The notes below the pieces were generated by a model that was not told the DNA's origin, searched no databases, and was given only the letters and a program-made list of their open reading frames with translations. A stretch of 62,683 nt of DNA, filler included, from Atractiella rhizophila (Eukaryota), in NCBI GenBank assembly GCA_021432655.1. It is 4 parts of 4 records of this genome, joined end to end, with 100 filler letters (N's around TTAATTAATTAA, not from the genome) between each part and the next. Parts side by side here need not be neighbours in the genome. Positions count along the whole stretch, not along the records: positions 1 to 29,332 come from MU271722.1; 3 more parts are not named here. One strand, 5' to 3'. Below are positions 1-62,683 of the stretch, in pieces. The position numbers were made by a program, and so were the translations under genes. The stretch's first letter is position 1. The number at the start of each line of letters is the position of its first letter.

Positions 1-95
1 TCCGATTCATAATCGATTCCATCCGATTCATAATCGATTCCATCCGATTCATAATCGATTCCATCCGATTCATAATCGATTCCATCCGATTCATA
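1..95. repeat. 21-bp tandem repeat (TCCGATTCATAATCGATTCCA), at least 4 copies
   Basis: Directly visible; codes DYESDGI on the minus strand. Confidence 0.95.
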
Positions 96-794
96 CTCGG
101 ATTCATCTGAATCATACTTGAAACCGGAGCTTTCTGGCTCTCCGTCGTCATGATGCCAAAAGTTGAGGTCAACTGGACTGATAAAAACGGGTCAATGATA
201 GGCAGGACTAAGGCATGACCGGAAACCAGGAGCCGGTATTTCTAAACGTTACTGTGCCTGTGGGGCCTCGAAGAATGACGCTCTAGCCGGATTTATCAGG
301 CCAGATTCGAAAGGCAGAGGGAAACACACAGCTTCATTCTCAAGTTCTTTTTGGCTACTCACTTTCATCCCCTTGCCATCTTCTCTAATTATCTCATAGG
401 TCACTTTTCCAGCCTCGGCTCCCCGAAAATCCACCTGCAGGGGCAGTGTTAGGTTGTGCATAAATGAAACTCCAGCCTGAAGTGTTTTCCACGCAAACAC
501 ATCGCAGGGCATCGGTTTATTCGACTCGAATGCTATTTGTTCTGCCTCTAATTCTGCTAATTCTGCTTTCACTTCCTCTGGCGTGGGGAATTCAGTCTCC
601 AGGTCAGATTCATAGCAGACCCGTCGCCCAAGGGGTCGGAGTTGGTCGGCGATAAAACTGGTCGACCAGTTTTGACCTGCTTTTTGGCTTGCAAATTTTC
701 TCAAAATTGAAGCGCAAAACCATTTTTCGCTTGCGGCCTCCGGCCGCTTGCGCAAACCCCTGGGGGCGACTAGTTTGCCCATTCTAGCTGTCAC
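1..794 (-). CDS. Hypothetical spliced gene, partial; 5' end cut by a TIR element, acidic DYESDGI-repeat tail running off the window
   Basis: ORF 249-794 joins in frame across a GT..AG intron (252-178) to an exon reading HPVDLNFWHHDDGEPESSGFKYDSDESEYESDGIDYESDGI... Confidence 0.5.
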
Positions 795-1344
795 TAGAGA
801 GGGTTAGGAAATTCAAACAGCTTGTTTGAATTTTCAAAAATGTTGTAGAAATGCAATAGAAATCTTTGGGCACCCTCACTGAATCTGGAAATGTGCCTCT
901 TTACTCTGGGCAACTTACGGAAGGCAAGGGATAACGATTTGATGTTGAACGGATGTTGGCTCGAACTTGGGTCACGTGCAGCACGTCCTGGTGGCTCACA
1001 TCAACTCAACTGCCTCAGCTCAGCTCCTACAAGCTCACAGAGGCTTCTGAGACATCAAATTTACTGTTATATGACCATTACGACCTTTCTTCCACTCAAA
1101 TTTCAGGTTTTCCAAGTGCGAGCATTTTCACAATAGTACACTACAGAAAGAACCAGAGCATAACTACAGCTTTTGCCCTTGTCATGAGCTGTATCTCATC
1201 AAAGCTCCAATTAAGGATCTTTGGAACCACTTTATATGCATCCAGGGACCTCAAATACCTACCAGGATACAAAAAAGGACTGTTGAATCTTTTGAATTTT
1301 CAACCTCCAAAAATCTCAAATTTTGAATTTCCTAACCCTCTCTA
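795..1344. mobile_element. 550-bp non-autonomous TIR element (MITE), TAG...CTA termini, possibly hAT-like
   Basis: 23-bp perfect terminal inverted repeats TAGAGAGGGTTAGGAAATTCAAA (795) and TTTGAATTTCCTAACCCTCTCTA (ending 1344); no recognisable coding interior; no TSD seen. Confidence 0.8.
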
Positions 1345-1880
1345 CTGAAGACTGGTTCATTCAGTCCCGCACAGCCTATAGTTCTTCTCCTTATTTTTTA
1401 AGAGGCTCAAAGAGACCGGAGGCTCAGGAAAGGAGGGATGTCGGTCATGAGAATGGAGGAGTGGTGCTCTTTATCGACCCTTCCCTCAAGTCCGGAGTTG
1501 AAGGTGTTGCATCTGTGGTTGAAGCTCTCTGGGAAGCGTCTCGCATTCGTGTATCTTCCTCCGTCTTTCTCGAATGCTCGCTGTCGGCAACTCCTCTCTG
1601 AACTCCCCCCAGTCGATCTGGTCGCCGGCGACTTTAATATTCGATTCAACTCAACTGTGTCCCCCTCTGATAGGGTTTCCTGCATCGTCACTTGGATGGC
1701 AATGCGTCAGCTGTTTGTCTCTTCTCCTCAGTCTACTCATCCCGCTCTCCTCAATCCCCTCGATCACATCTTCACTTCGCCTTCAACTCCTGTCCACTCA
1801 CTTTCACTCATTCATCAGTCCTCCTTATCTATCTCCTCCGACCATCCTCTCCTCCTCTGCCAACTCTCTCTCCCTCTTCT

Positions 1881-2827
1881 NNNNNNNNNNNNNNNNNNNN
1901 NNNNNNNNNNNNNNNNNNNNNNNNNNNNNNNNNNNNNNNNNNNNNNNNNNNNNNNNNNNNNNNNNNNNNNNNNNNNNNNNNNNNNNNNNNNNNNNNNNNN
2001 NNNNNNNNNNNNNNNNNNNNNNNNNNNNNNNNNNNNNNNNNNNNNNNNNNNNNNNNNNNNNNNNNNNNNNNNNNNNNNNNNNNNNNNNNNNNNNNNNNNN
2101 NNNNNNNNNNNNNNNNNNNNNNNNNNNNNNNNNNNNNNNNNNNNNNNNNNNNNNNNNNNNNNNNNNNNNNNNNNNNNNNNNNNNNNNNNNNNNNNNNNNN
2201 NNNNNNNNNNNNNNNNNNNNNNNNNNNNNNNNNNNNNNNNNNNNNNNNNNNNNNNNNNNNNNNNNNNNNNNNNNNNNNNNNNNNNNNNNNNNNNNNNNNN
2301 NNNNNNNNNNNNNNNNNNNNNNNNNNNNNNNNNNNNNNNNNNNNNNNNNNNNNNNNNNNNNNNNNNNNNNNNNNNNNNNNNNNNNNNNNNNNNNNNNNNN
2401 NNNNNNNNNNNNNNNNNNNNNNNNNNNNNNNNNNNNNNNNNNNNNNNNNNNNNNNNNNNNNNNNNNNNNNNNNNNNNNNNNNNNNNNNNNNNNNNNNNNN
2501 NNNNNNNNNNNNNNNNNNNNNNNNNNNNNNNNNNNNNNNNNNNNNNNNNNNNNNNNNNNNNNNNNNNNNNNNNNNNNNNNNNNNNNNNNNNNNNNNNNNN
2601 NNNNNNNNNNNNNNNNNNNNNNNNNNNNNNNNNNNNNNNNNNNNNNNNNNNNNNNNNNNNNNNNNNNNNNNNNNNNNNNNNNNNNNNNNNNNNNNNNNNN
2701 NNNNNNNNNNNNNNNNNNNNNNNNNNNNNNNNNNNNNNNNNNNNNNNNNNNNNNNNNNNNNNNNNNNNNNNNNNNNNNNNNNNNNNNNNNNNNNNNNNNN
2801 NNNNNNNNNNNNNNNNNNNNNNNNNNN
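1881..2827. other. Assembly gap (N run) inside the LINE
   Basis: Run of N. Confidence 0.99.
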
Positions 2828-3802
2828 TTTCCCTCGCCTCCACTCGACACTCTGGTCGTGGTTCGACCGCCTTCGCGAGCGCTCCCCCTTCATCCGGACA
2901 CCGCCTCCTCCGTTCAAAGGTCGCCAGTCACCTATGGGCCGATAGGTCCTCTGACACTCAAACTTCACGACCCTCCGGCGGTCGTAAGGCCCTCTCCTCC
3001 TCGCAGCTGCGAGCAGCGTTTGTTAGGTCATCACTTTCTCAGGGCGGGGGTACCAGACTTTACCCTGCTTGCTTCCACGCCATTTACCGGTTCGCCTGAT
3101 CAAGCAAGGTTGGTAAGGGTTGGTGGACCTCCGAGGAGTCCTTCGCCAGAACGAACAGGCTGAAGAGGTTTTTCGGTCCGGAGCTTCAGTTAGGGCAATC
3201 CTGGGGCTCTGTGTACGGCTCTATGAACCGCGACGACTGGACGACTTAACCTCACGGCAACTATGTTTCTCACTGCCCCTTCCCCCGTTGTCGAAATGTA
3301 AAACCCTATAACTCGAAGTAGGGCAAGACTACTCTGGTGAAACGATTGACATAGCTCGACTGCGACCGGAAGTAGCTGTCAAAACCCCTACGTCCGTTAC
3401 AGCAGCCGTTTCCTCCCTCGTCTCTGTTCCCTTCTTCGTAAACCGCCCTCTCCTCTCTCCGCTGACCCTCGAACTCCCACTACCGACCCTCCGCTCCTCT
3501 CCTCTCCGTTCACTCGTTTCCTCCTCGCCCAATTCCTCCGTCTGTTCACCCCAGTTACTTCTCTAGTTTCTCGTACCCTTACTAGCCTGGTGGGACACCC
3601 ATCGGCGCTACTTACCGTTACCCTTCAACCGCGAGCGGCAACTGATGCTAACAACGGTATCGTAATACTCACGTTTCAACGGTCTACTCGAGCGCATATC
3701 GACCACCTCGTGGAGCTCTGAACTTCAACCGCAGCCGTTACAACACAGCTTGACTGCCTTTCCGTGCAAGCTTCAGGTCCTTCTAGCGTTATCCCGCGAC
3801 CT
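2828..3802. other. Mirror-reversed (reversed, not complemented) reverse transcriptase segment of the LINE
   Basis: Reading the + strand letters right to left gives FLDFERAFPSV (from 3782), RGYPQGG (3608-3588), FADD (3411-3400), KYLG (3227-3216) and IYRTFVRP (~3086-3063), in canonical RT order. Confidence 0.93.
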
Positions 3803-5147
3803 CCCGCTTCAACCCAGCCCTCCCCCTCGTTGTGTCCCCCTGGCCAACCGCTCCCACTAGCTCAGACATCGTGCCACAAATCCAGTCTTGCGAACTGTTT
3901 GCTCGCTTTCTCAATGCTCAGGCCAACGAGGAGGTCAACGGTTACGTTCTCACACTTCAGGCATTCCTTCGTTGCGAACGGCTTCACCTCCTGAGCTCAT
4001 CTGAGCTTGTTGGCACTCTAGGTTCCCTCATCTCACCGCTCCAGCGGACGGCTTCTCTCGTGGACAGGATTCTCCTTATTCCTGATGATGCCTTGCGGAG
4101 GCTCGTCATCAAGTGGAGGGTGGGATGTTTCGGGTTCAACCGCCCTTGCTCTCATGGTCTCCCTTTTTCTCGCGGTCATGTTAGCTGTTTGATTCATTCT
4201 TAGGTTTCTTTTCTTCTGCTAATTCTCCCTTCATGGATCTCTCTTTCTTTTCCAAAGTGCCTCTTCCCTCTATTCCCAACTCCTCTCTCTTAGATGCTAT
4301 CATTGGTCATAGAAATAGTACTTTCTCCTCCATAGCCTATCAGACCCTTCTTGTTTGGTCTGATTTCTTACACAGATAACTTGTAGTCGTAGTCGTACTC
4401 ATCTCCTGCCAATCCATTCTTAAACCCCCCCCCCCGTTCTCTCACTTTCACGACTAACCGTCGACCACATCTGCTGGCGCATCATCTGCGTATCAAATCC
4501 AACGCAATTGGCAACGCTTCAAGTCGTTACGACGCATATCTGAAAATGAGTTATTCTGCCAGACTCCGAGAGGTGAGGAGGGCTTTAAATCCTTATAGCT
4601 TTATCCGCTCTCGCTGCTCCCATCGCTGTGAATCTTCCCTTTCAGTAGAGGTCCGCAGCGGCTTTGCTATCACCGGTTGGATTTCCTCTATCTCTTGTGT
4701 TCTCTACGTGTCAGGCGTCGCCTTTCGACAGGAGGGGATAAGGATAAGACTTATTCTTGAGGTCACTGCCCCGCCACGGTCGTCATCCGTTGTCCCGCTC
4801 AAATTTCCTGGGAAGACTCTACTCCATCAAACGCTGTCAGCACTTTGCAACGCCTTAGCAGCCATCCCAGCTTCGATTGCCTCGCATCCCGACATTCCTC
4901 ATCGCAGCAGGCAAGAGTTTACTCTCACTGAGATTGTGCTTGCCGCCACGGGTTGTGTTTTCTTCATCGTCAGCTCCACAACTTCCATTTTCACCAGGAG
5001 CAGAGAAGGACGAACCAAGTAAGTTCGTGGAGAAGCCAAACAATTTGGGCTCCAAGCGTGCGTTGATGAAGTTTGACTACGTCTTTTCTCAGATTGAAGC
5101 TAACTTTGGTCCATTTATATCTTGTCTAGTGTTTCAATCAACCGTAG

Positions 5148-6145
5148 ATAAATATCTTCGTAAAGCGCAGGAACGGCAAGAACCCAAAGATATTGCTCCC
5201 TACCAACGAATTGAGATTTCGAAGAGCTCAGTGAGTGCTGGGCGAGAAGGAGGAAGGAGTTTGAAGAAACGATTAGGAGGACTCGTATCTGTATCAATGT
5301 TCGCCATCCCTTTGTTCTTGAGCGACATGGGACAGGGTGTTAAGTCCATGATTCGCTTGAATGTGGATGAAACCGTGGTGAAATATGCTTCATGGGAAGT
5401 CTCAAAGGAGAGTACGGTCACTCGAGGTCGGTCTACGAGAAGGCCCTTGACGTCTCTCCGGCTGAAATAAAGGTGTAGATGTCATATACGGAGATGGAGC
5501 TCACAGCGCGTAACATTCAACACGTGCAACGTCTTCGATCGAGCTTCACCCTTCTCCCCCATTTGGACCAGCTCTGGTACAAATACGTATTCCTTGAGGA
5601 ACTCTTGGGAAATGCGAGCGGCGCTCGGCAGATATTCAAGCGCTGCTGGGAGCCAGATGAAAGGCTTGGAGCGCATATATCAAAACGGAGGTAAGGTATG
5701 GGGAGTTGGACCGTGCAAATAATGTTTATGAGAGGTTGTCAATTGTCATCTGGGAACAAGGATATGTATTAAATGGGCAAAGCTTGAGGAGGTCCATGGG
5801 ATGTTGGATCGAGCGATGGAAATCTTTCAGATGACGATGGAGAAGCCGAGTTGGTGAAGGCTCAATCTGTTTACCATGCATTTGCAAAGCTTGAAATCCG
5901 GCATAAGGAATATGAGAGGGCCATGTGGAGAGCACTTGAACAATAGTATGGGGATGTAGATTCATTGGCCGAGGTGGAGGCAAAGACGCAATGCATTGTC
6001 CGGGGGTATAAGGATGAGAATGCACAGGTGTCTGGAGATCAGTGCTTCCTTCACCGAATGTTCGTTTCGCATTATCTGAGCAATGTTTGGCCAGGAGTAG
6101 ACAAATAATAACAGTAATCCGCAAGCAGAGTCTCGAATCATGGAG
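5148..6145 (+). pseudogene. CLF1: CLF1/crooked-neck (HAT-repeat splicing factor) pseudogene fragment
   Basis: [51 protein letters not shown] and [21 protein letters not shown] match the Clf1/Crn N-terminus; several frameshifts and stops. Confidence 0.85.
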
Positions 6146-6169
6146 GGCTTCAAGGTGTGCGAATCATGG

Positions 6170-8433
6170 TAACTTCCTGCACCGATGCATGTGCGGAAGC
6201 AATGAGACCCCCTAATGGAGGAACGTACCGGGACTTGCGTATCATCGACGACAGCCTCCACCTGGACATTATCCTCCATCGGAGTCCTGATATACTCGAG
6301 CATCTCTGCTTGAGCCTTCTTCTCGGCTTCCACGACGTGCTGTCTCCTGGGCTGCAACCAGGAGCTGGACTTCATGAACAAACTAGTGCCTGGATGAAAT
6401 CCTGCCAATGTAGCAACCCGAGACGCTGCTGCTCCATCGTTCCCTGTGGGAGGCTAGGAGGATTCGATTTCCTCAACTGTGAAAGAGGGAGAGGGAATAT
6501 AGTATCGTCCTGTGAGGTACTCGATGTCAAAGATGTGTTGTCCGCCTGGTGGCGACAGGGGTTGGAAGAAGTCTCCTTTGGCGGAGAGATGTCGGTTACG
6601 GGTGATGGCGTCGAGGCTGAGGATGTGATCTTTCGAAGACCGAAGAGTTCGCCCGCGACTCGGGCGGACGATTCTGCTCCGACGAAGAAGCAGTGGATCT
6701 TGAGGAAAGAAGGACTTGAAGGATCCAGGTCGGATCTGGGCGGAAAACTCCAGCGGGAGATCTTCTTCTCTGGCGAGCAAACGGACAAGTTCACCGCTCC
6801 AGATTTTTTCCGCTCTATTTTTGCCAATCCACAGACTCTGTAATGCGAGTGCGTAAAGCGTCACAGCGGTATAAACGTCGCCTATATCCTTGATGGAAGT
6901 CCTTACGTCCTTCTGTTGCTTCTCATCCCAAATTGCTGCAATACCTTTCGGAGTCCTCAGCTCCAACTCAAACAGCTTATTATTCGGCGGATGGGCCAAC
7001 CTGTTCCATCACATTGCATCCAATCAGCGCATCTTCCGCCAACCAATTTCGAGAGGGTAGACGGAGAGGGGAGAGGACGGACCAAGGCAACAAGCTGTTC
7101 TCTTCGACTTCCAAATCGTTGTCTGCTGCGAAGAGGCGTACCGAGTATTCCGAATTCCAAATCCCTGCCGAGCCGCTCAACTTGCTCGTTTTCTTGAACA
7201 CGACTGCGGGCCAATGGGTGATGGCGAGTTCCTCTGCGTCGTCTTCACTCTTATTCTCGCTCCCGATCCGCACCCCCAACCTGACCCAAACGAGCTCCAA
7301 CTCCCTAAACATTCCTTCCGCCACCCTCAAATCCTTCGCCCTATCCTTCGACAGGCTCTTAGACAGGTTTGGGACGGTCCTGCCCTTTGACCTTTCCACA
7401 ATACTCTTATCAGGCACGGGGAGGAGCTTTCCATCCCTCCTGAGCCGCGCAGCAATCTTTCCCCACTTCGATCCGCTCTTCCTCTCCGGATCCTTGAGCC
7501 CCAACACCTCCCTGTTGACCACCTTCTGCGGCTCCCGATGTCCAGTCTTCGGGCCGCAGTATATGCATTCGCAGACTTTGGAGGCGGAGAGCGGTTGAAG
7601 AAGCCAGTAAGCGTGAGCAACAAACTCGTTGGGAGATCTATAGATCACATTAGGACGACCGTACAGGTAGGCGTCTGATCGAACTTTGGTGGGATCTGTC
7701 GGGTCCCCGCTCTTCCTTCGAGTTTTGGTGAAGATGTTGTATCCGGGAGGGAAGGCTGCGAGCGCGTATGTCTTCCTGTCTTTTCCATCCCAACAATCGT
7801 CCCAACCCAACCGACCGGACGAAACAAAAAGAATCCATGATCCGCTCGAATGGGAAGGAAGAAACGCACTCATATCGAGTTCGAGCAGCTTTGCCACAGA
7901 GTCGCCGAGCTTCTTCAGCCACATCTCTAACGTCTTCTGCTTGGACCGAGTAATGTTTTCAAACGGGCCATCCTGCGTGCTCGGCCAATGAGACTCGTTC
8001 CCGTCTGTGGCGAAGATGTGGATGCGATAGATCTTCTCCTTCTCGTTGTATATGATCCGATACATCTCTTCCTCCTCCGCCTCCGCCTCTGCATTCGCAT
8101 CCACAGTCATACCCACATCCTTGAGTGACGGAGCAGGCCGGTACTGAACTGACAAGTTCAACTGAGAGTTTCCAGCAGTTGGAATCGGGGGAAAGGTTGA
8201 GGATGCTGATGGCAAGAGACGCGTGCGCTTGATCCCATTAGCACTCTTTACCGCATACGATGAGACGTTTTTTGGTGATACATTCCGAGAGGTCAAGGAT
8301 GGATTTTGAGAGGTGGAGGGTTGAGGAGAAGCTGAGCAAGAACGTCGTTTGTTAGGGTCGTGGGGGTTGGATCGGGTTCTGTGGAGTCGGAGGGAGGAAG
8401 GAAGTGACTTTAGGCACTGTCGTCCAGCATCAT
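6170..8433 (-). CDS. clr2: Clr2-like transcriptional silencing protein (cryptic loci regulator 2 domains); in-frame TAG at 6454-6456, possibly a pseudogene; ends approximate
   Basis: FPPGYNIF..RSDAYLYG..YRSPNEFVAHAYWL..CECIYC resembles the Clr2 N-terminal domain. FRELELVW..ITHWPAVV, AEKIWSGELVRL and GRYY resemble the C-terminal part. Confidence 0.75.
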
Positions 8434-9289
8434 TTTGATGACAGAGCAGAGACAGAGGTGAATAATGTAATAGCTTGTTATGGGATACGCAAGTACAGGA
8501 TGACATGGAAGGGTATTGGCAGTGGCCATCGGCTTGTTTATAATGGGCACGCTTTTGGGCATCGCAACCAGTTCTGAGCGCATACATTATGAGCGCAGGC
8601 GATGTTTTGATCGTGTTCGAAGGACCCAGGTGCTGTTAAGCAAAGAAGACTTACCTGCGTCTAATGGTGGGGCTTTTCTCATTATCCCTACTTCTTGCGT
8701 ATGTTTAGTAATACTTTCTCACACGAATGAAATCCCGTATGACGCTTTTGGAGCGAAGAGAGAGAAGTAATCGAGTAATCAAAGGAACCTGGCGTTGGGC
8801 GGTGTTCGCGTTGGTTCCAACTACACGGCAGGTTGGGTACGGAATCCAAGGGAGCTCCGTCAGGACTGTGAAGCAGAGAGTCCCAGCGCAGCTCCGTTTG
8901 CGGTCTCTAGGGACTCGAAAACGAGTTCGATGTAGTTACTCCTATCGTGCGTCCCTCCGGACGACTCCCTGGCGACTCATTTTAATGAATCTAATTTGAA
9001 TCCCTGGGGGATCGACTGGAGGCTGCTGATATCCCTCAGCATGCAGACCTTTCAAAATGCTTTTGACAACACCTCTAGGCTTACTGATGCTGAGTTCTTC
9101 ATCGGAATGATATCAGAGAGCGAAATCCCTGAAGAAGTCATAATAGCTATAGAAAGACGACCCACGAGACGGCAAGCGAAGAAGATGTTGTTATTGTGGA
9201 ATTGCAATGATTATTATTTCGCCTTTTTGAGTCTTTATATACTTGTAGAAACATTATTCTAGAACATTCAAGAAAAAGTAAGATAGTGA

Positions 9290-12240
9290 GAAACCAGAAA
9301 ACACGAGACCAAGTAGGAATATTCCAGAACAAGTAATGACCACTCAACTGAGATGGCAGGATGAACCGAGAACAACAGAAGATGAGACACTGGGGCCAGA
9401 AAAATGCCGCGTGAATGGAACTGGATGGGAAACGATGGAACAAAGATGGGAAAGATTGAAGGATCATTTTGTGATTGGAGATGGAAAGGAAGCCTCAAAC
9501 CTAACCGAAAATCAGAGACAACAAGTCACGAAAATCCTCAGAGATCACGTCGACGTATTCGCTACCTCAATCGGCGACATGTCTCGAGCTGACATCATCC
9601 AGCACTCAATAAAGCTCAAGCCAAACTCGCCTCCAACATGCTCGTCATTCCAACAAGCTCTTACCCCTCCACAGTGCGAATTTATGGACAACGAAATCAA
9701 CGCCATGCTGCGTGACGACGTCATTGTCCAGCTTCTAACTTCCGAATATCAACCTCCTCACATTGCACACCTCAAAATCGTTCCCAAACCAAATGCGGAC
9801 AATAAACCATTCGATATGTCCCTCGACTCCCTTCAATTAAAGGTGTCCCAGGTACTGGCGAGGCTAGAAGGAAAGCAGGCAACCGAATCTCCAGAGAAGA
9901 TAGAAGATCCGGGGAGGCATGAACTCCCATCGAGACCAAAAGGCAAAATGGAGAATGGTAATAGCATTTCTGGGACTCAATGATGCAACAGAATTATCTC
10001 CATTTCCGGCTGCAGGGTTCAACCAAACAGCAGCAGAAATGGCAGGAAACAAGTTTTATTTCTGTGTGGACATGTGCAGAGGTTTCTATGCCATCTTCAT
10101 GCGAGAAGAAGACATCGAAAAGACAGCTTTCTATGCTCCTGGAAGAGGAATGTTCGCTTTCAAGGTAATGGTGTTAGGACTCACCGGATCCCCCCGCACG
10201 TACTGGGAAATGATGGATCACGCGTTTGGAGCTCTCTGACAGAAACACAGAGGGTGGCTAGGTTGGTGGGTTGACGACGTGCTGGGAGGAGAAAAGACTT
10301 TTGACAAGACAATACTGCTCCTCAGAAAATTCCTCCAACGATTCTGAGCAGCGAAATTATCGATCACAGCGTCGAAAGGACCGTTGTTTGTCTCTCGAGT
10401 ACGATGGTGTGGGGTAGTGTAGTGGCAGAAGATGGAGTAAAGGCGGATGTAAGCAAGATCGATGCTATCATGAGTATGCCAGAGCCAACAAACCCAGCTG
10501 AAATGATCAGGTTTCCTAGCACAGCTGGCCCCAGAGGACTCCAAAACCTCATCCCCAACTTCGCGAAAATTACACAGTGCCTTCGTCCCCTTGCACTCGC
10601 TGCACCTCTGACTCCAGCAGACAAGTGGCCAGATGGAAAGCACAAGCCAGGGGCTATCAAGCAGGCACTAGGGCAGTTACCGCCTGGGTAGAAGCTAATT
10701 GATGAGCATAGACATGCCATTAGCTCCTTAAAGCTTGCATTATGCAGCGCTCCGGTCTTACGATCTCCACACTTCGCTCCAGATTCAGAATTCGTTGTCC
10801 AATCAGATACATGTCGGCACGGGTTCACAACCACACTCAGCCAACGATTCGACGACGGCATCATCCATCCAGTCGGATATGCATCTCAAAAGACAACACC
10901 CAGCGAATCGCTCTATTCAGCCCTGCTGCTTGAACTTGCATGTCTCAAATATAGATTAGACTATTGGAGAGACCTGACCCTGGGATTCCCAATTGTCATC
11001 ACAACCGATTGTCGCTCACTCCTAACCATCCTCAAAAATGAGAAGCTGAGTCCTGCGCATGAGCAATGGAGGGAATGTCTATTCACCCACAACGTCTGCC
11101 ACGTTGAACATGTCTCAGGTAGTGTGAACTATTGCTGTGATATGATGTCCTGGGCACCTGTGGGAGAAGCTAGGAAGGAGATATCAGAATCGTGGATGGA
11201 GACAGAAGGGTTAAAGGACGATTCGTTCCAAGAAGCACTAGGGGGGAAGCAATGGGCGACAATGGTTCAGGAGGATCCGGAGGTAAAGGGGTTGCTCAAG
11301 AGATTTGAAGGAGATGAGGTATTCAAGGGAGTACTTCCCCTAATCCTATTCCTCTCACTCAAGGACGGAACTCCTGAACACCTGAAAGACATCCGGTCTG
11401 CAAGGTGGCGATAACATGCAATCACTTCACTGGATTTCAATGGGCCGTAATGTTGTCGAATGAGAAAGCTGAGCTTGGGGTCTGCATCTTCAACAAAGTC
11501 ATGAACCATGCCGGTCCACCACTTCATGCGATGTTCGATGGAGGTGGAACCTTCAACAACGAGGAACTGAAAGCGAGAATCAAGGAAGTTGGGATGATTG
11601 CACACTTCACACCGGCTCTGCAACCATCGACGAACGGGTTTCTGGAGAACAAAAACCACATCTACCTAGAATGGTGCAGGAAAAATGCAACTGTGGGGGA
11701 AACGGACCCACGCAGCACCTGGGCCCTCAGGTTGGACGAAGACATAAACTCCCTCAACCGAGACAAGATTAGAAGCCACGGATTCATGTCCACGGAGCTA
11801 CTCCATGGATGGAACTCATTGGACCGGCACACACTTACACCGAAGGATGTGAGGGACCTGGTCAAGGGTGAAAAGGAACCGACAAGAAAGGATGTCATGG
11901 TATATCTAGGACAGTTGGAGGCAAAAAGGGAACAAGCATTCACTAACAGGGTCAAGTACACGGCAAAGATGAACGAGAATTTTTGATAAACATGCAAACC
12001 CAGTCATGGAGCTGGACAGCACTATCCACATGCAACACTCGCGAAAACTGGAAGCCAGGTGGTTTGGACCGTTCAAAATCGTCGGGAAAAGAGGAAACAT
12101 CGATGGAGAAGAATCAGCAAATGCACAGTCCTGGATTTTGGAAACATTTACCGGAGTGAGAATAGGTGGATACTTCCACAACCAACGCCTTAAACACTTT
12201 CACATGAGGGATCCTGAAGCAGAAGGGGCTTAGCCACAGT
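9290..12240 (+). mobile_element. Degenerate Ty3/Gypsy LTR retrotransposon pol (RT, RNase H, integrase)
   Basis: VDMCRGFY..KTAF..GLTGSP..WVDD (RT); FVVQSD..HPVGYAS..LELAC..TDCRSL (RNase H); integrase region 11405-11986; SRKLEARWFGPFKIV. Many stops and frameshifts; no LTR pair recognised. Confidence 0.9.
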
Positions 12241-29332: not shown

Positions 29333-29432
29333 NNNNNNNNNNNNNNNNNNNNNNNNNNNNNNNNNNNNNNNNNNNNTTAATTAATTAANNNNNNNNNNNN
29401 NNNNNNNNNNNNNNNNNNNNNNNNNNNNNNNN
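29333..29432. other. Scaffold gap with artificial TTAATTAATTAA linker (also at 58720-58731 and 61412-61423)
   Basis: Identical 12-mer centred in three ~100-nt N runs. Confidence 0.97.
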
Positions 29433-58142: not shown

Positions 58143-59993
58143 ATGCCTTCGCGTATTTCACGTTTTATCGCTTTGTTCTTCGCAAATCATCCATCTCGTA
58201 CTCTGATTCGCAGAGAGCACACCTGTTGCATTTACCCTATAAGCATACTACACACCTTCTATTCAAAGTCAACAGTTTTGTTAACTATCTATCCTGTGCA
58301 TCATTGTGCATTTTGACTCTCTAATTTCAGCCAATGTTTCTTTGTCGTCCACTTACAAATTATATAACAGCTGCCAATGTATCTGAAATCATACGACAAA
58401 TATTGAAGCCACTAGGAGCATCAGGTCGCTAGACACGCTTTTTGACACTTGTTCGTACTCATCATATGATGATCTGATATGAGGGATAGAGTTCAAGTTT
58501 AGACTCCTTCCCCAACTCCAGTTGAGTGCGCCAGTGATTCTGCCAAGCGAGGACGAGCCGTTTATTCTTTATTTCCATAGTAGATCTCCATCCTGCTCAG
58601 GCACTTCTAGGCCATGTCGGCGTTCACATTCAGCTGGACGTTGAACATACTGTAAACATCTCACTCGATCCTCTANNNNNNNNNNNNNNNNNNNNNNNNN
58701 NNNNNNNNNNNNNNNNNNNTTAATTAATTAANNNNNNNNNNNNNNNNNNNNNNNNNNNNNNNNNNNNNNNNNNNNGCCAGCATTGCCGTGCATTTTACAA
58801 CCACTTGTTTCAATTGAAGAGCCTACGAGCCTCAGCTGGTCTTTTTTTGTAGAATTATTATGTTTTGTCAATTCCAGATAAAAAAATTCTGAAAGTCTTT
58901 CCTCACTCTAGCTCGCTATTCAGCCATTCAACTATACCAAACAGATGGGAGAATTCTCGGAAATGTTCCTGGTTACTGATGGCAGGAAATCATGTGCTCA
59001 GATGCCCCGTATTAGGCCAACTTTCAGGAAAATAATGGACAACTGAGCAACAAATACTCTTAACGATGGCGGTCGCTTGAGTCCAGGTACTTTCTCAAGT
59101 AAGCTACTTTTGATCCCGTTCTGCATTACGCCGTTGCAAATTCTTTTTCATTGTCACGCTTCCTGTTCTAGAAGGGACATCGTCGTTTTTTAAGACCCAG
59201 ACACAGTATCTGACCAACATACCACAATTGAATGCCTCCTGATAGTGAGAGATTACCGTAAAACGACGTAGATGGAAATAACAGATTCCTCAAGCGCTCT
59301 CCTTTCACGTTTCAACGTTCAAGCCCCACTTTAACGAGGGATTTGTCATTTAGTACCACAAACAAGTTAAAACATTGCAGTGCTCCAGACAGACAGGGCA
59401 GGATCATCACTCTTTCGAAGCCTCAGTCCTATTGACACGCAGCATTACTCTCCTGAGTATTTGAGAGTCTTTGGAAGAGAGAAGACTCAGTAGGTTACGT
59501 GAGTCCCTCCTCTTCCACCCCGCGGTTGCATTTTGGGTTCTAAAGCTTCTCACACATCTATTCGAGGCTTGGCCGCTCTTCATCCCGTTACCACATCAAA
59601 AGAGAAACGAACCATCCACATTATTCACATATGTATGTCTATAATTTGCAAGCTATCTATATCCCCTGCCAGCAATAGTCCCGGCCTCCTTTATGTCCCT
59701 TCCATTTCTGTTTCCGGCGGAGACCTTGGCTGGTGCTTCTAAAAGGTTCGTCGCTATTCACGGATATGAACCAACACAGGATCAACGAATGTTTACAATA
59801 GGTCTCCAAGGGTAACTTGGTTGTTGAGAGGAAGATATTCGAAGAAGCGTAATTACGTAGTCGCTCTGCTTCAAGGGTCAAACAAAACGACGATCGCACG
59901 ACCCTCAATCGACAACAAGTCCTCTCCCGATAAAGCGATAAGCCAGGGGAAGCATTGGCAGCATAGTCAAGCCTTCGATCAAGTAGACTAAAC

Positions 59994-61367: not shown

Positions 61368-62683
61368 NNNNNNNNNNNNNNNNNNNNNNNNNNNNNNNNN
61401 NNNNNNNNNNNTTAATTAATTAANNNNNNNNNNNNNNNNNNNNNNNNNNNNNNNNNNNNNNNNNNNNTCTTTCTGGGCAGATCAGAGACGAGGACCAAAC
61501 CGTTATCCACCGCTGGACGTCCTTCACAACTCGGCACTGCATCTGTGATGGCGTCGTCAATAAGAGACTGGTGAAGTAAGAGGGGAACGGAATGCCGCAT
61601 TTGATCACCATGCAGAATCACGGATCTCGTCCGTTGTCAGTTAAGGGAAACAAGTTACTCGGCTCATGGCGTTGACATGGTCCCTGACAAAAAAAAACAA
61701 CATATTCAGCGAGCGCCGTAAAGTCACATCATTGCTAACAGACAATGTATCACTCGCCGATAGTAATCCGAGAGCAGTTAAGTTGCCAATAGCATTTGCC
61801 TGTAGCCTCCTTGGAGAAGAAGATCACGACTATGGACTTGTTGTCGTCGTAGGATACTTAATCACGATTCTACAGCAATGCCAGATGATGATGGTCAAGA
61901 TTCTCATAAAACGCTCTGCAAAACAGAATTAAATCCTCCGAGTTAGATAGACTGGACAGATTTTTATTGATGTTCTTTGAGAGACATCAGGTTTGCTGCA
62001 CTCAAGCTGGTTGTCAACGTTCCGGGCGGATGTGTGGCTTACACCCAATCTCAGATGTCGCGTCAAGCATTGTAAAGTCCACCCTCGAGTCCCTCGCTAC
62101 AGTAAAGGTACTTTTGCTGCTTTAACTCTTCACTTCCCACCATCTTCTCCTTCCCTTCCACCGCCTCGGGGACGATTGTGCTCGCCATCTTTAGTTCGCT
62201 TTCGCGCCGAAATTTTGCTGCTGGTGAGTGTCACTTGTTGCTACATTAAATTCCTCCGTATCTTTTCTCCCTAGGTGCTCTATTGGTTTCGTTAAACCTG
62301 GGAGGAGATCTTTAAGAGATGCACCGAGGTTTGGCAGGACAACCCTCAAATATAGGCCGCTGTTATTGTCCAGATATTCTCCTGATTGATGAACATAGTA
62401 GCAGACGGCTTACCTGAGTTTTCTGCCACTTTCAGGACGCAGTGGTCCTTTTGCTTACTTGATATCAAATTCATTGGCGTTCAGTGCTTCCGGCAGTGGT
62501 TAGTTTCAAGCGGTAGGTGTGACAATCACTTGCTCTTAATCTTCTACCATGTCGCTTCCAATGGGGTTGCAACTGTTTCAGCTGTTATGATACGACAGTC
62601 TGGATAGAATAGATGAGGAGGTGGGACGAGATTTAAAGAGGTGCCAGGTTCGCGTCCAGTCGTGTTCCGTTTCCTTCATTCAA

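What the first reader, a model, noticed from the sequence alone, without database searches (positions are those of the whole stretch)
2828..3802. Hidden mirror-image reverse transcriptase: 975 bp that is reversed but not complemented
Seen: none of the six normal frames makes sense here. Reading the + strand letters from 3802 down to 2828 without complementing gives RPIAIFLDFERAFPSVRH...IVVNG...HRGYPQGGPIIPMLFDLFIDP...FADDIACI...NGMKLNIPKCK...QVSSAKYLGM...LAIYRTFVRPISDHG...GLLPPRERFRQLGAGLTAHLRSL. After un-reversing, the end joins in frame to forward base 3803 (HLRSL-S-RFNPALPLVVSPW) and continues into ORF 3832-4203. Known: these are the non-LTR RT motifs in canonical order, lying between an APE domain and the C-terminal domain, which is exactly what this LINE otherwise lacks. 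Inference: ordinary inversion gives a reverse complement, and I know no biological mechanism that yields a pure mirror copy. The block abuts an N gap and has several 1-nt indels, so a software orientation error during gap extension is most likely. If reads supported it, it would be extraordinary.
Basis: partly seen in the sequence, partly recalled or inferred. Interest (0 to 1): 0.92.

Follow-up and report, generated by a model that had tools for sequence, protein, structure and literature searches.

The report
Back-to-front reverse transcriptase: assembly artefact
A 975-base piece of a fungal jumping gene (LINE) is written back to front without being complemented, which no known DNA process can do; the evidence points to a software slip at the edge of an assembly gap, not to biology.

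Summary
Read from 3802 down to 2828 without complementing, the block encodes the reverse-transcriptase core and thumb of an APE-type non-LTR retrotransposon. All 9 full-length homologues match it (E 3e-16 to 1e-8), and a profile built from them scores E 7e-39. The six normal frames give nothing: no hit at E<=10, best profile E 1.9, and 0 Pfam families for 6 stop-free pieces.

A test that uses no homology agrees. The 4-mer orientation score is -0.068 per base in the block and +0.065 outside it, with a change point at 3784-3866.

Un-reversing the block in place restores one collinear reading. It runs APE, then a gap of the right size, then RT, then the C-terminal domain, across 3802/3803 in 7 of 9 homologues.

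One contig of a public run aligns from 3802 rightwards. To the left it continues with 21 letters that equal window 2849->2829 exactly.

Best explanation: an in-silico letter-order error, probably a leftward gap extension pasted unreversed, inside a degenerate LINE copy. This is not a biological feature. Interest is low, apart from quality control.

The parts
791..1348 (.). Small element with 27-nt terminal inverted repeats, sitting in the 5' part of the LINE copy. It is not part of the mirror problem. The LINE reading resumes at about 1344.
   Evidence: arms 791-817 and 1322-1348, 96% complementary. (P0027 residues 41-103 align from 1344).
1344..1880 (+). N-terminal endonuclease (APE-like) part of the LINE ORF, in normal orientation, with a frame change near 1500-1532. 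It ends at the N run.
   Evidence: Exo_endo_phos_2 E 3.1e-5, 24.3 bits, below the 27.4 cut-off. (9 of 9 homologues align at 1347-1848). (P0027 81-92% identical, in two frames).
1881..2827 (.). Run of 947 N. It stands for the linker and the N-terminal RT motifs of the LINE.
   Evidence: N run; between the end of the APE match and the start of the match on the block the nine homologues have 302-368 residues (906-1104 nt, less about 45 nt of unaligned flank). 947 falls within that range.
2828..3802 (.). Mirrored block: RT motif A to the end of the thumb, readable only from 3802 down to 2828 without complementing. It has two compensating frame changes around the FADD motif.
   Evidence: homology only in the mirror reading. 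(k-mer orientation score inverted). (loose end of a run contig equals window 2849->2829, 21 of 21).
3803..4203 (+). C-terminal domain of the LINE ORF, with a Cys/His-rich end, in normal orientation. It is in frame with the un-reversed block.
   Evidence: 7 of 9 homologues give one HSP from the un-reversed block across 3802/3803 to 4182-4194. (P0014 and P0022 at 4012-4188 as deposited).
4200..4380 (+). Last part of the ORF after a 1-nt frame change near 4192-4200. The repeat ends near 4430.
   Evidence: P0028 residues 48-106 are 98% identical at 4200-4376, in another frame than residues 1-47. table 4 (T put in behind 4192 in part of the contigs) and table 7 (loose ends at 4429-4435).

Best explanation
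The block 2828-3802 is an in-silico letter-order error inside a degenerate copy of an APE-type non-LTR retrotransposon (LINE) of a fungus.

The real DNA most likely reads APE domain, then about 0.9-1.0 kb not assembled (the 947 N), then RT motif A to thumb, then the C-terminal domain, all on the + strand.

The 975 letters directly left of 3803 are placed correctly but written in the opposite order. The letter truly adjacent to 3803 now sits at the gap edge (2828).

This is what results in two cases. Either a leftward extension of the right-hand contig into the gap is stored in order of discovery and pasted without being turned round. Or, equivalently, a minus-strand extension is complemented but not reversed.

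What is shown: the mirror homology, the inverted k-mer statistics, the restored collinearity and frame, and one read-derived contig with the un-reversed letters. What is inferred: which program or script made the slip, and that it happened during gap extension.
For: 1. Homology only in the mirror reading. 9 of 9 RVT_1-bearing homologues hit the mirrored block (E 3e-16 to 1e-8). None hit the deposited block at E<=10. The best of 50 shuffles has E 0.37. The profile of the nine gives E 7e-39 against a best deposited frame of E 1.9. In the whole-window mirror, hits fall only at 2829-3821.

2. Homology-free test. The score is log f(4-mer) minus log f(reversed 4-mer), trained outside the LINE. It is +0.065 per base outside, +0.071 in 1300-1877, +0.051 in 3803-4500, and -0.068 in the block. 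The two 500-base windows wholly inside the block are the lowest of 237 at all four Markov orders. The change point lies at 3784-3866.

3. In-place un-reversal. 7 of 9 homologues give a single same-frame HSP from the block across 3802/3803 to about 4188; the best is P0014 at E 3e-23, against 3e-6 for the C-terminal piece alone as deposited. The 302-368 residues missing between APE and block fit the 947 N.

4. Reads. In run X1 one contig aligns from 3802 rightwards. Its 21 unaligned letters to the left equal window 2849->2829 at 21 of 21. The deposited 3781-3801 differs from them at 17 of 21. That 21-mer occurs nowhere else in the window on either strand.

5. The block abuts an N run.

6. Established knowledge. 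DNA strands have chemical 5'->3' polarity, so breakage and rejoining can only give a reverse complement. No known process copies a sequence in reversed letter order.
Against: - The read evidence is thin: one contig in one run (X1), 21 letters. It comes from a high-copy repeat, so it may derive from another copy of the LINE rather than from this locus.
- X1 may be the sample the window was assembled from, so it is not independent of the organism, although it is independent of the assembly software.
- I could not lay reads on the un-reversed version, because the tool takes unchanged sequence only.
- I could not run Pfam RVT_1 directly on the mirrored translation. The RT call rests on homologues that Pfam confirmed.
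- No whole genome was held, so I could not ask whether other gap edges show the same error.
- The program responsible is not identified.
Confidence: 0.96

Rival explanations
1. The letter-order error was introduced after the assembly was made. Possible routes are a submitter's script that concatenated or edited contigs, or the preparation of this window (including a deliberately planted control), rather than an assembler or gap closer.
For: The window shows other signs of scripted handling. Three 100-base linkers, each made of 44 N, a 12-base stop-in-all-frames word and 44 N, join pieces at 29333-29432, 58676-58775 and 61368-61467. The tool texts say that some stretches are masked as N by the operators, so the 947 N need not be an assembly gap.
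Against: The block starts exactly at the N run and ends inside an ORF with no linker. That fits a one-sided gap extension better than the handling of whole contigs. The flanks of the three linkers have normal orientation scores (+14.9 to +55.8 per 500 bases, against -21.9 for the right flank of the 947 N). This is still an artefact, so the biological verdict is unchanged.
Confidence: 0.1
2. The mirrored order is real DNA at this locus: a segment whose + strand carries the LINE RT sequence in reversed letter order, made by an unknown process.
For: Only that the sequence as given reads so. The single contradicting contig could come from another copy of the repeat.
Against: - No known enzymology can reverse letter order without complementing (established knowledge).
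- The block abuts an N run.
- Its ends coincide, in frame, with what an in-place string reversal needs.
- A read-derived contig shows the un-reversed join, 21 of 21.
- Nothing listed bridges the deposited 3802/3803.
Confidence: 0.003
3. The RT-like reading of the reversed string is a chance product of biased (C/T-rich) composition.
For: The block is compositionally skewed, and long stop-free stretches also occur in some deposited frames.
Against: - The profile gives E 7e-39 over about 250 aligned positions, with motifs A, B, C (FADD), D and E and the thumb in canonical order.
- 50 shuffles of the same composition give at best E 0.37.
- A continuous HSP runs into the normally oriented C-terminal domain.
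Confidence: 0.001

Closest known systems
APE-type non-LTR retrotransposons (LINEs) of fungi; nearest full-length relatives P0015, P0021, P0011, P0014, P0023, P0026, P0003, P0008, P0022 (unnamed metagenome or assembly proteins, 22-36% identical)
   Same: Same order of parts once the block is un-reversed: N-terminal endonuclease, RT (RVT_1 in the relatives), thumb, and a Cys/His-rich C-terminal domain. It is high-copy in the runs laid.
   Different: This copy is broken. It has a TIR-element insertion and frame changes near 1500-1532, around FADD and near 4192-4200. About 1 kb is unassembled, and the RT is written back to front. I did not determine the clade (Tad1, L1 or other).
Near-identical LINE fragments annotated as hypothetical proteins of Atractiella rhizophila (P0001, P0027, P0002, P0028; names)
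   Same: P0001 is 100% identical over 60 residues, P0027 81-92%, and P0028 85-98% to the normally oriented parts of the element. They therefore belong to the same LINE family.
   Different: None of these fragments covers the RT region, so they neither show nor exclude the mirror problem in other copies.
Reversed, non-complemented sequence used on purpose as a null or decoy in repeat searches (passage read in bioRxiv 10.64898/2026.04.14.718546, section 47)
   Same: The same string operation: letter order reversed, no complement. It keeps composition but destroys real homology in six-frame or strand-aware searches.
   Different: There it is deliberate and covers a whole genome. Here it is a single 975-base block inside a sequence presented as real.
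Biological inversion (reverse complement)
   Same: A segment whose orientation differs from that of its flanks.
   Different: An inversion would place the RT on the minus strand of the deposited sequence. No minus-strand hit exists.

Membership tests
APE-type non-LTR retrotransposon (LINE) | N-terminal apurinic/apyrimidinic-type endonuclease domain | tested here: met
   Exo_endo_phos_2 E 3.1e-5, but 24.3 bits is below the curated cut-off of 27.4; 9 of 9 RT-bearing homologues align at 1347-1848 (E 1e-7 to 6e-15). The support is weak at the Pfam level and good at the level of homologues.
APE-type non-LTR retrotransposon (LINE) | Reverse-transcriptase domain (RVT_1) with motifs in canonical order, including the FADD-type motif C | tested here: met
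   Met only in the reversed, non-complemented reading; a profile of nine Pfam-verified RT homologues gives E 7e-39, with FADD in mirror offset 1. Not met in any deposited frame. Pfam itself could not be run on the mirrored translation.
APE-type non-LTR retrotransposon (LINE) | Endonuclease, RT and C-terminal domain collinear on one strand in one ORF | tested here: not met
   As deposited it is not collinear. After in-silico un-reversal it is collinear and in frame across 3802/3803 in 7 of 9 homologues, but still with frame changes and an N run.
APE-type non-LTR retrotransposon (LINE) | 3' tail (poly-A or simple repeat) and target-site duplication | tested here: inconclusive
   The repeat ends near 4429-4435 (loose ends, table 7), beside a run of C. 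No poly-A was seen. The 5' end is not defined, so no TSD could be sought.
Biological inversion | Homology appears on the complementary strand (reverse complement) | tested here: not met
   No hit on the minus strand of the deposited block at E<=10. The deposited minus frames do not appear among the profile hits listed at E<=10.
In-silico letter-order (reverse without complement) artefact | Homology and oligonucleotide orientation bias both inverted in one sharply bounded block | tested here: met
   (homology).: -0.068 against +0.065 per base, the lowest 2 of 237 windows, change point 3784-3866.
In-silico letter-order (reverse without complement) artefact | String reversal in place restores frame and collinearity with both flanks | tested here: met
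In-silico letter-order (reverse without complement) artefact | Read data carry the un-reversed order at the junction | tested here: met
   table 7 (X1, place 3802, 21 loose letters), compared: 21 of 21. This is a single contig and may come from another copy of the repeat.
In-silico letter-order (reverse without complement) artefact | Recurrence at other gap edges of the same assembly (a systematic bug) | not testable with these tools
   No whole genome is held. Within the window, the flanks of the three linkers are normal.

The most novel reading that the evidence does not exclude
The deposited order is real: this locus carries a 975-base stretch of LINE reverse-transcriptase sequence in true mirror order (reversed, not complemented) on the same strand. 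That would require an unknown process able to write DNA in reversed letter order. The evidence does not strictly exclude it, because the one contradicting contig could stem from another copy of this high-copy repeat.
Probability: 0.003. Interest if true: 0.95.

Novelty: not a real feature. Interest (0 to 1): 0.1.

Why it matters
Biologically it does not matter. It is a broken LINE copy with a data error.

As quality control it is instructive. A block that is reversed but not complemented is invisible to every six-frame or strand-aware search. It therefore splits a transposon annotation and looks like 1 kb of sequence with no relatives.

It could also yield false hits in the reversed-genome decoys that some repeat pipelines use to set false-discovery thresholds (passage read in 10.64898/2026.04.14.718546).

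The k-mer orientation score flagged the block without any homology, so it could serve to screen the gap edges of whole assemblies. If the slip comes from a pipeline rather than a one-off script, other gap edges of this and sister assemblies may carry the same error. I guess about 1 chance in 4; this was not tested.

Tried and rejected
- Whole-genome scan of gap flanks: no genome is held for this window.
- Other copies of the block inside the window: none, by blastn or tblastx with the mirrored or the deposited block.
- Word-index protein searches. The C-terminal domain with 'longer' lengths and the APE fragment with 'longer' lengths found nothing. The C-terminal domain with 'near' lengths found only P0028, which does not reach the RT.
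- Long open frames in mirrored readings of the whole window. This was not discriminating, because the RT has frame changes.
- Read cover. Mean depth was 0 in all three runs (X1-X3) in the eight bins 2828-3755, and hundreds to thousands from the bin 3756-3871 onwards. These are contigs, and a filter leaves some records out.
- Shares of words held by the runs were small (0.17, 0.16 and 0.05). I draw no conclusion on strain or habitat.
- Literature. Three full-text searches for phrases such as 'reversed but not complemented' found no paper describing such errors in deposited assemblies. They found only deliberate uses (synthetic constructs, decoys). I read one passage of one preprint and saw the other papers only as search listings. 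Subscription journals are not covered. I recall reports of wrongly oriented entries in barcode databases but found none here.
- Earlier notes of this scan: nothing on this genome. The 'mirror' notes concern phage fibre proteins and are unrelated.
- The tail of P0001 (residues after the APE part) did not align significantly to the distant homologues. So it says nothing about what lies in the gap, beyond showing that other copies continue there.

Full report
**What is there.** The window begins with a broken copy of a LINE-like element. From about 1344 to 1880 the + strand encodes an endonuclease-type N-terminal domain. Pfam gives Exo_endo_phos_2 at E 3.1e-5, 24.3 bits, below the cut-off of 27.4. 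A run of 947 N follows (1881-2827), then the 975 bases of the finding (2828-3802), then an ORF from 3805 to 4203.

**The observation.** I reversed 2828-3802 in a script without complementing it and translated it. The FADD piece lies in offset 1. The last, leftover letter (window 2828) together with 3803-3804 forms a codon in frame with 3805-4203.

Instead I fetched relatives through the normally oriented APE fragment. That search found 26 proteins at E<=0.001.

- Nine of the 26 are full-length (946-1599 residues). Pfam confirmed RVT_1 in all nine, with E 8e-32 to 2e-25 (which scanned 12 proteins; of the other three, P0012 and P0019 had no RVT_1 and P0024 had a sub-threshold partial one).
- In local tblastn, 9 of 9 hit the mirrored block (E 3.1e-16 to 1.1e-8). 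None hit the deposited block on either strand at E<=10. Fifty shuffles of the block gave at best E 0.37.
- A profile built from the nine scores the mirrored offset 2 at E 7e-39 (123 bits), over profile positions 18-97 and 138-309. The intervening FADD segment (positions 117-140) lies in mirrored offset 1. The best deposited frame has E 1.9.
- The block therefore holds RT motif A through the thumb, with two compensating frame changes.
- Six stop-free pieces of the deposited frames matched no Pfam family at E<=1.
- Against the whole window and its mirror, mirrored hits fall only in 2829-3821. Normal hits fall only in 1347-1848 and 4012-4188.

**A test without homology.** Real genomes treat a k-mer and its reverse complement alike, but not a k-mer and its plain reverse.

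- Using Markov models of order 1 to 4, trained on both strands of the rest of the window, I compared each 500-base window with its own mirror. Outside the block the score is +9 to +11 on average (sd about 5; 233 windows). The two windows wholly inside the block score -10 to -18 and are the two lowest of 237 at every order.
- A per-base 4-mer score, trained outside 1300-4500, is +0.065 outside, +0.071 in 1300-1877, +0.051 in 3803-4500 and -0.068 in the block. That is the same size with the opposite sign.
- The cumulative score turns at 3784-3866, which includes 3802/3803.
- The flanks of the three other N-containing joints are normal.

**Does un-reversing in place make sense?** With the block turned round where it stands, 7 of 9 homologues give one continuous, same-frame alignment from the block across 3802/3803 to 4182-4194. 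For example, P0014 residues 915-1320 align at E 3e-23. As deposited, only the APE part (9 of 9) and a short C-terminal piece (3 of 9) align. Between the APE match and the match on the block the homologues have 302-368 residues, which fits the 947 N. The block is thus in the right place, and only its letter order is wrong.

**Reads.**

- One search for public runs found three with small shares of the words: 0.17, 0.16 and 0.05. All three are kept as contigs.
- Laid on 2828-6300, one contig of run X1 aligns from 3802 rightwards and has 21 loose letters on its left.
- A script shows that window 2849->2829, read downwards, equals those 21 letters at 21 of 21. The deposited 3781-3801 differs from them at 17 of 21. 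The 21-mer occurs nowhere else in the window.
- This is direct evidence that sequenced DNA carries the un-reversed join.
- Its limits: it is one contig, from a high-copy repeat, and possibly from the sample that the window was assembled from.

**Mechanism.** If T is the true sequence left of 3803, the deposited block equals T reversed. The same string arises if a minus-strand extension (the reverse complement of T) is complemented but not reversed. It also arises if a leftward extension is stored letter by letter as it grows and is then pasted as it stands. Several things fit this: the position at the edge of an N run, a length of 975 bases, the correct placement, and the in-frame join. I infer a one-sided gap extension. 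I cannot name the program.

The window also holds three 100-base linkers, each of 44 N, a 12-base word with stops in all frames, and 44 N. This shows that pieces were joined by script, so a later handling step remains possible; I give it about 0.1. A real mirror segment would need a process that writes DNA in reversed letter order, and none is known. I give that reading 0.003.

**What the element is.** It is an APE-type non-LTR retrotransposon.

- Its nearest full-length relatives are 22-36% identical.
- Near-identical fragments in the public protein collection carry the name Atractiella rhizophila: P0001, P0027 and P0002 and P0028.
- P0028 shows that the ORF continues to about 4376 after a 1-nt frame change near 4192-4200. 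Part of the run contigs have an extra T behind 4192.
- Loose ends at 4429-4435 mark the end of the repeat.
- A small element with 27-nt terminal inverted repeats (791-1348) interrupts the 5' part.
- The copy is therefore degenerate in several ways, apart from the mirror error.
- I did not determine the clade.

**Literature.** Three full-text searches found no description of reversed, non-complemented blocks in deposited assemblies. One preprint passage that I read describes the deliberate use of a reversed, non-complemented genome as a null for repeat searches. That shows why such a block goes unseen.

**Verdict.** This is not a biological feature. Interest is low, apart from quality control of assemblies.

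Noticed in passing
window 29333-29432, 58676-58775, 61368-61467: Three identical 100-base joints, each 44 N, the 12-base word TTAATTAATTAA (stops in all six frames) and 44 N. The window is therefore several separate pieces joined by script, and adjacency across these joints means nothing.
   Followed up: partly
window 791-1348: A small non-coding element with 27-nt terminal inverted repeats (96% complementary), inserted in the 5' part of the LINE copy, where the LINE reading ...ILAVT / EDWF... is interrupted. It looks MITE-like. The target-site duplication was not worked out.
   Followed up: partly
window 1-116: A tandem array of a 21-base unit, 5.5 copies, 94% matches, at the very start of the window.
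   Followed up: no
window 4192-4200 and 1500-1532: Further 1-nt frame changes in the normally oriented parts of the LINE copy, relative to near-identical proteins P0028 and P0027. Part of the run contigs carry an extra T behind 4192, so this copy or its consensus is degenerate.
   Followed up: partly
window 4435-6300: The sequence right of the LINE is also repeated in runs X1 and X2, with depth in the hundreds and many differing letters and 1-nt indels. ORF 5479-5691 looks to me, from memory, like a piece of a HAT-repeat (crooked-neck-type) gene, but Pfam gave no hit at E<=0.01.
   Followed up: partly
window 10692-11411 (+): An open stretch with the RNase H-like domain of LTR-retrotransposon reverse transcriptases (RT_RNaseH_2 E 3e-19). 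This is a second, unrelated retroelement in normal orientation.
   Followed up: no
window 6983-8587 (-): A 535-residue ORF with a Clr2 transcription-silencing domain (PF16761, E 1.6e-16). It is probably a host gene.
   Followed up: no
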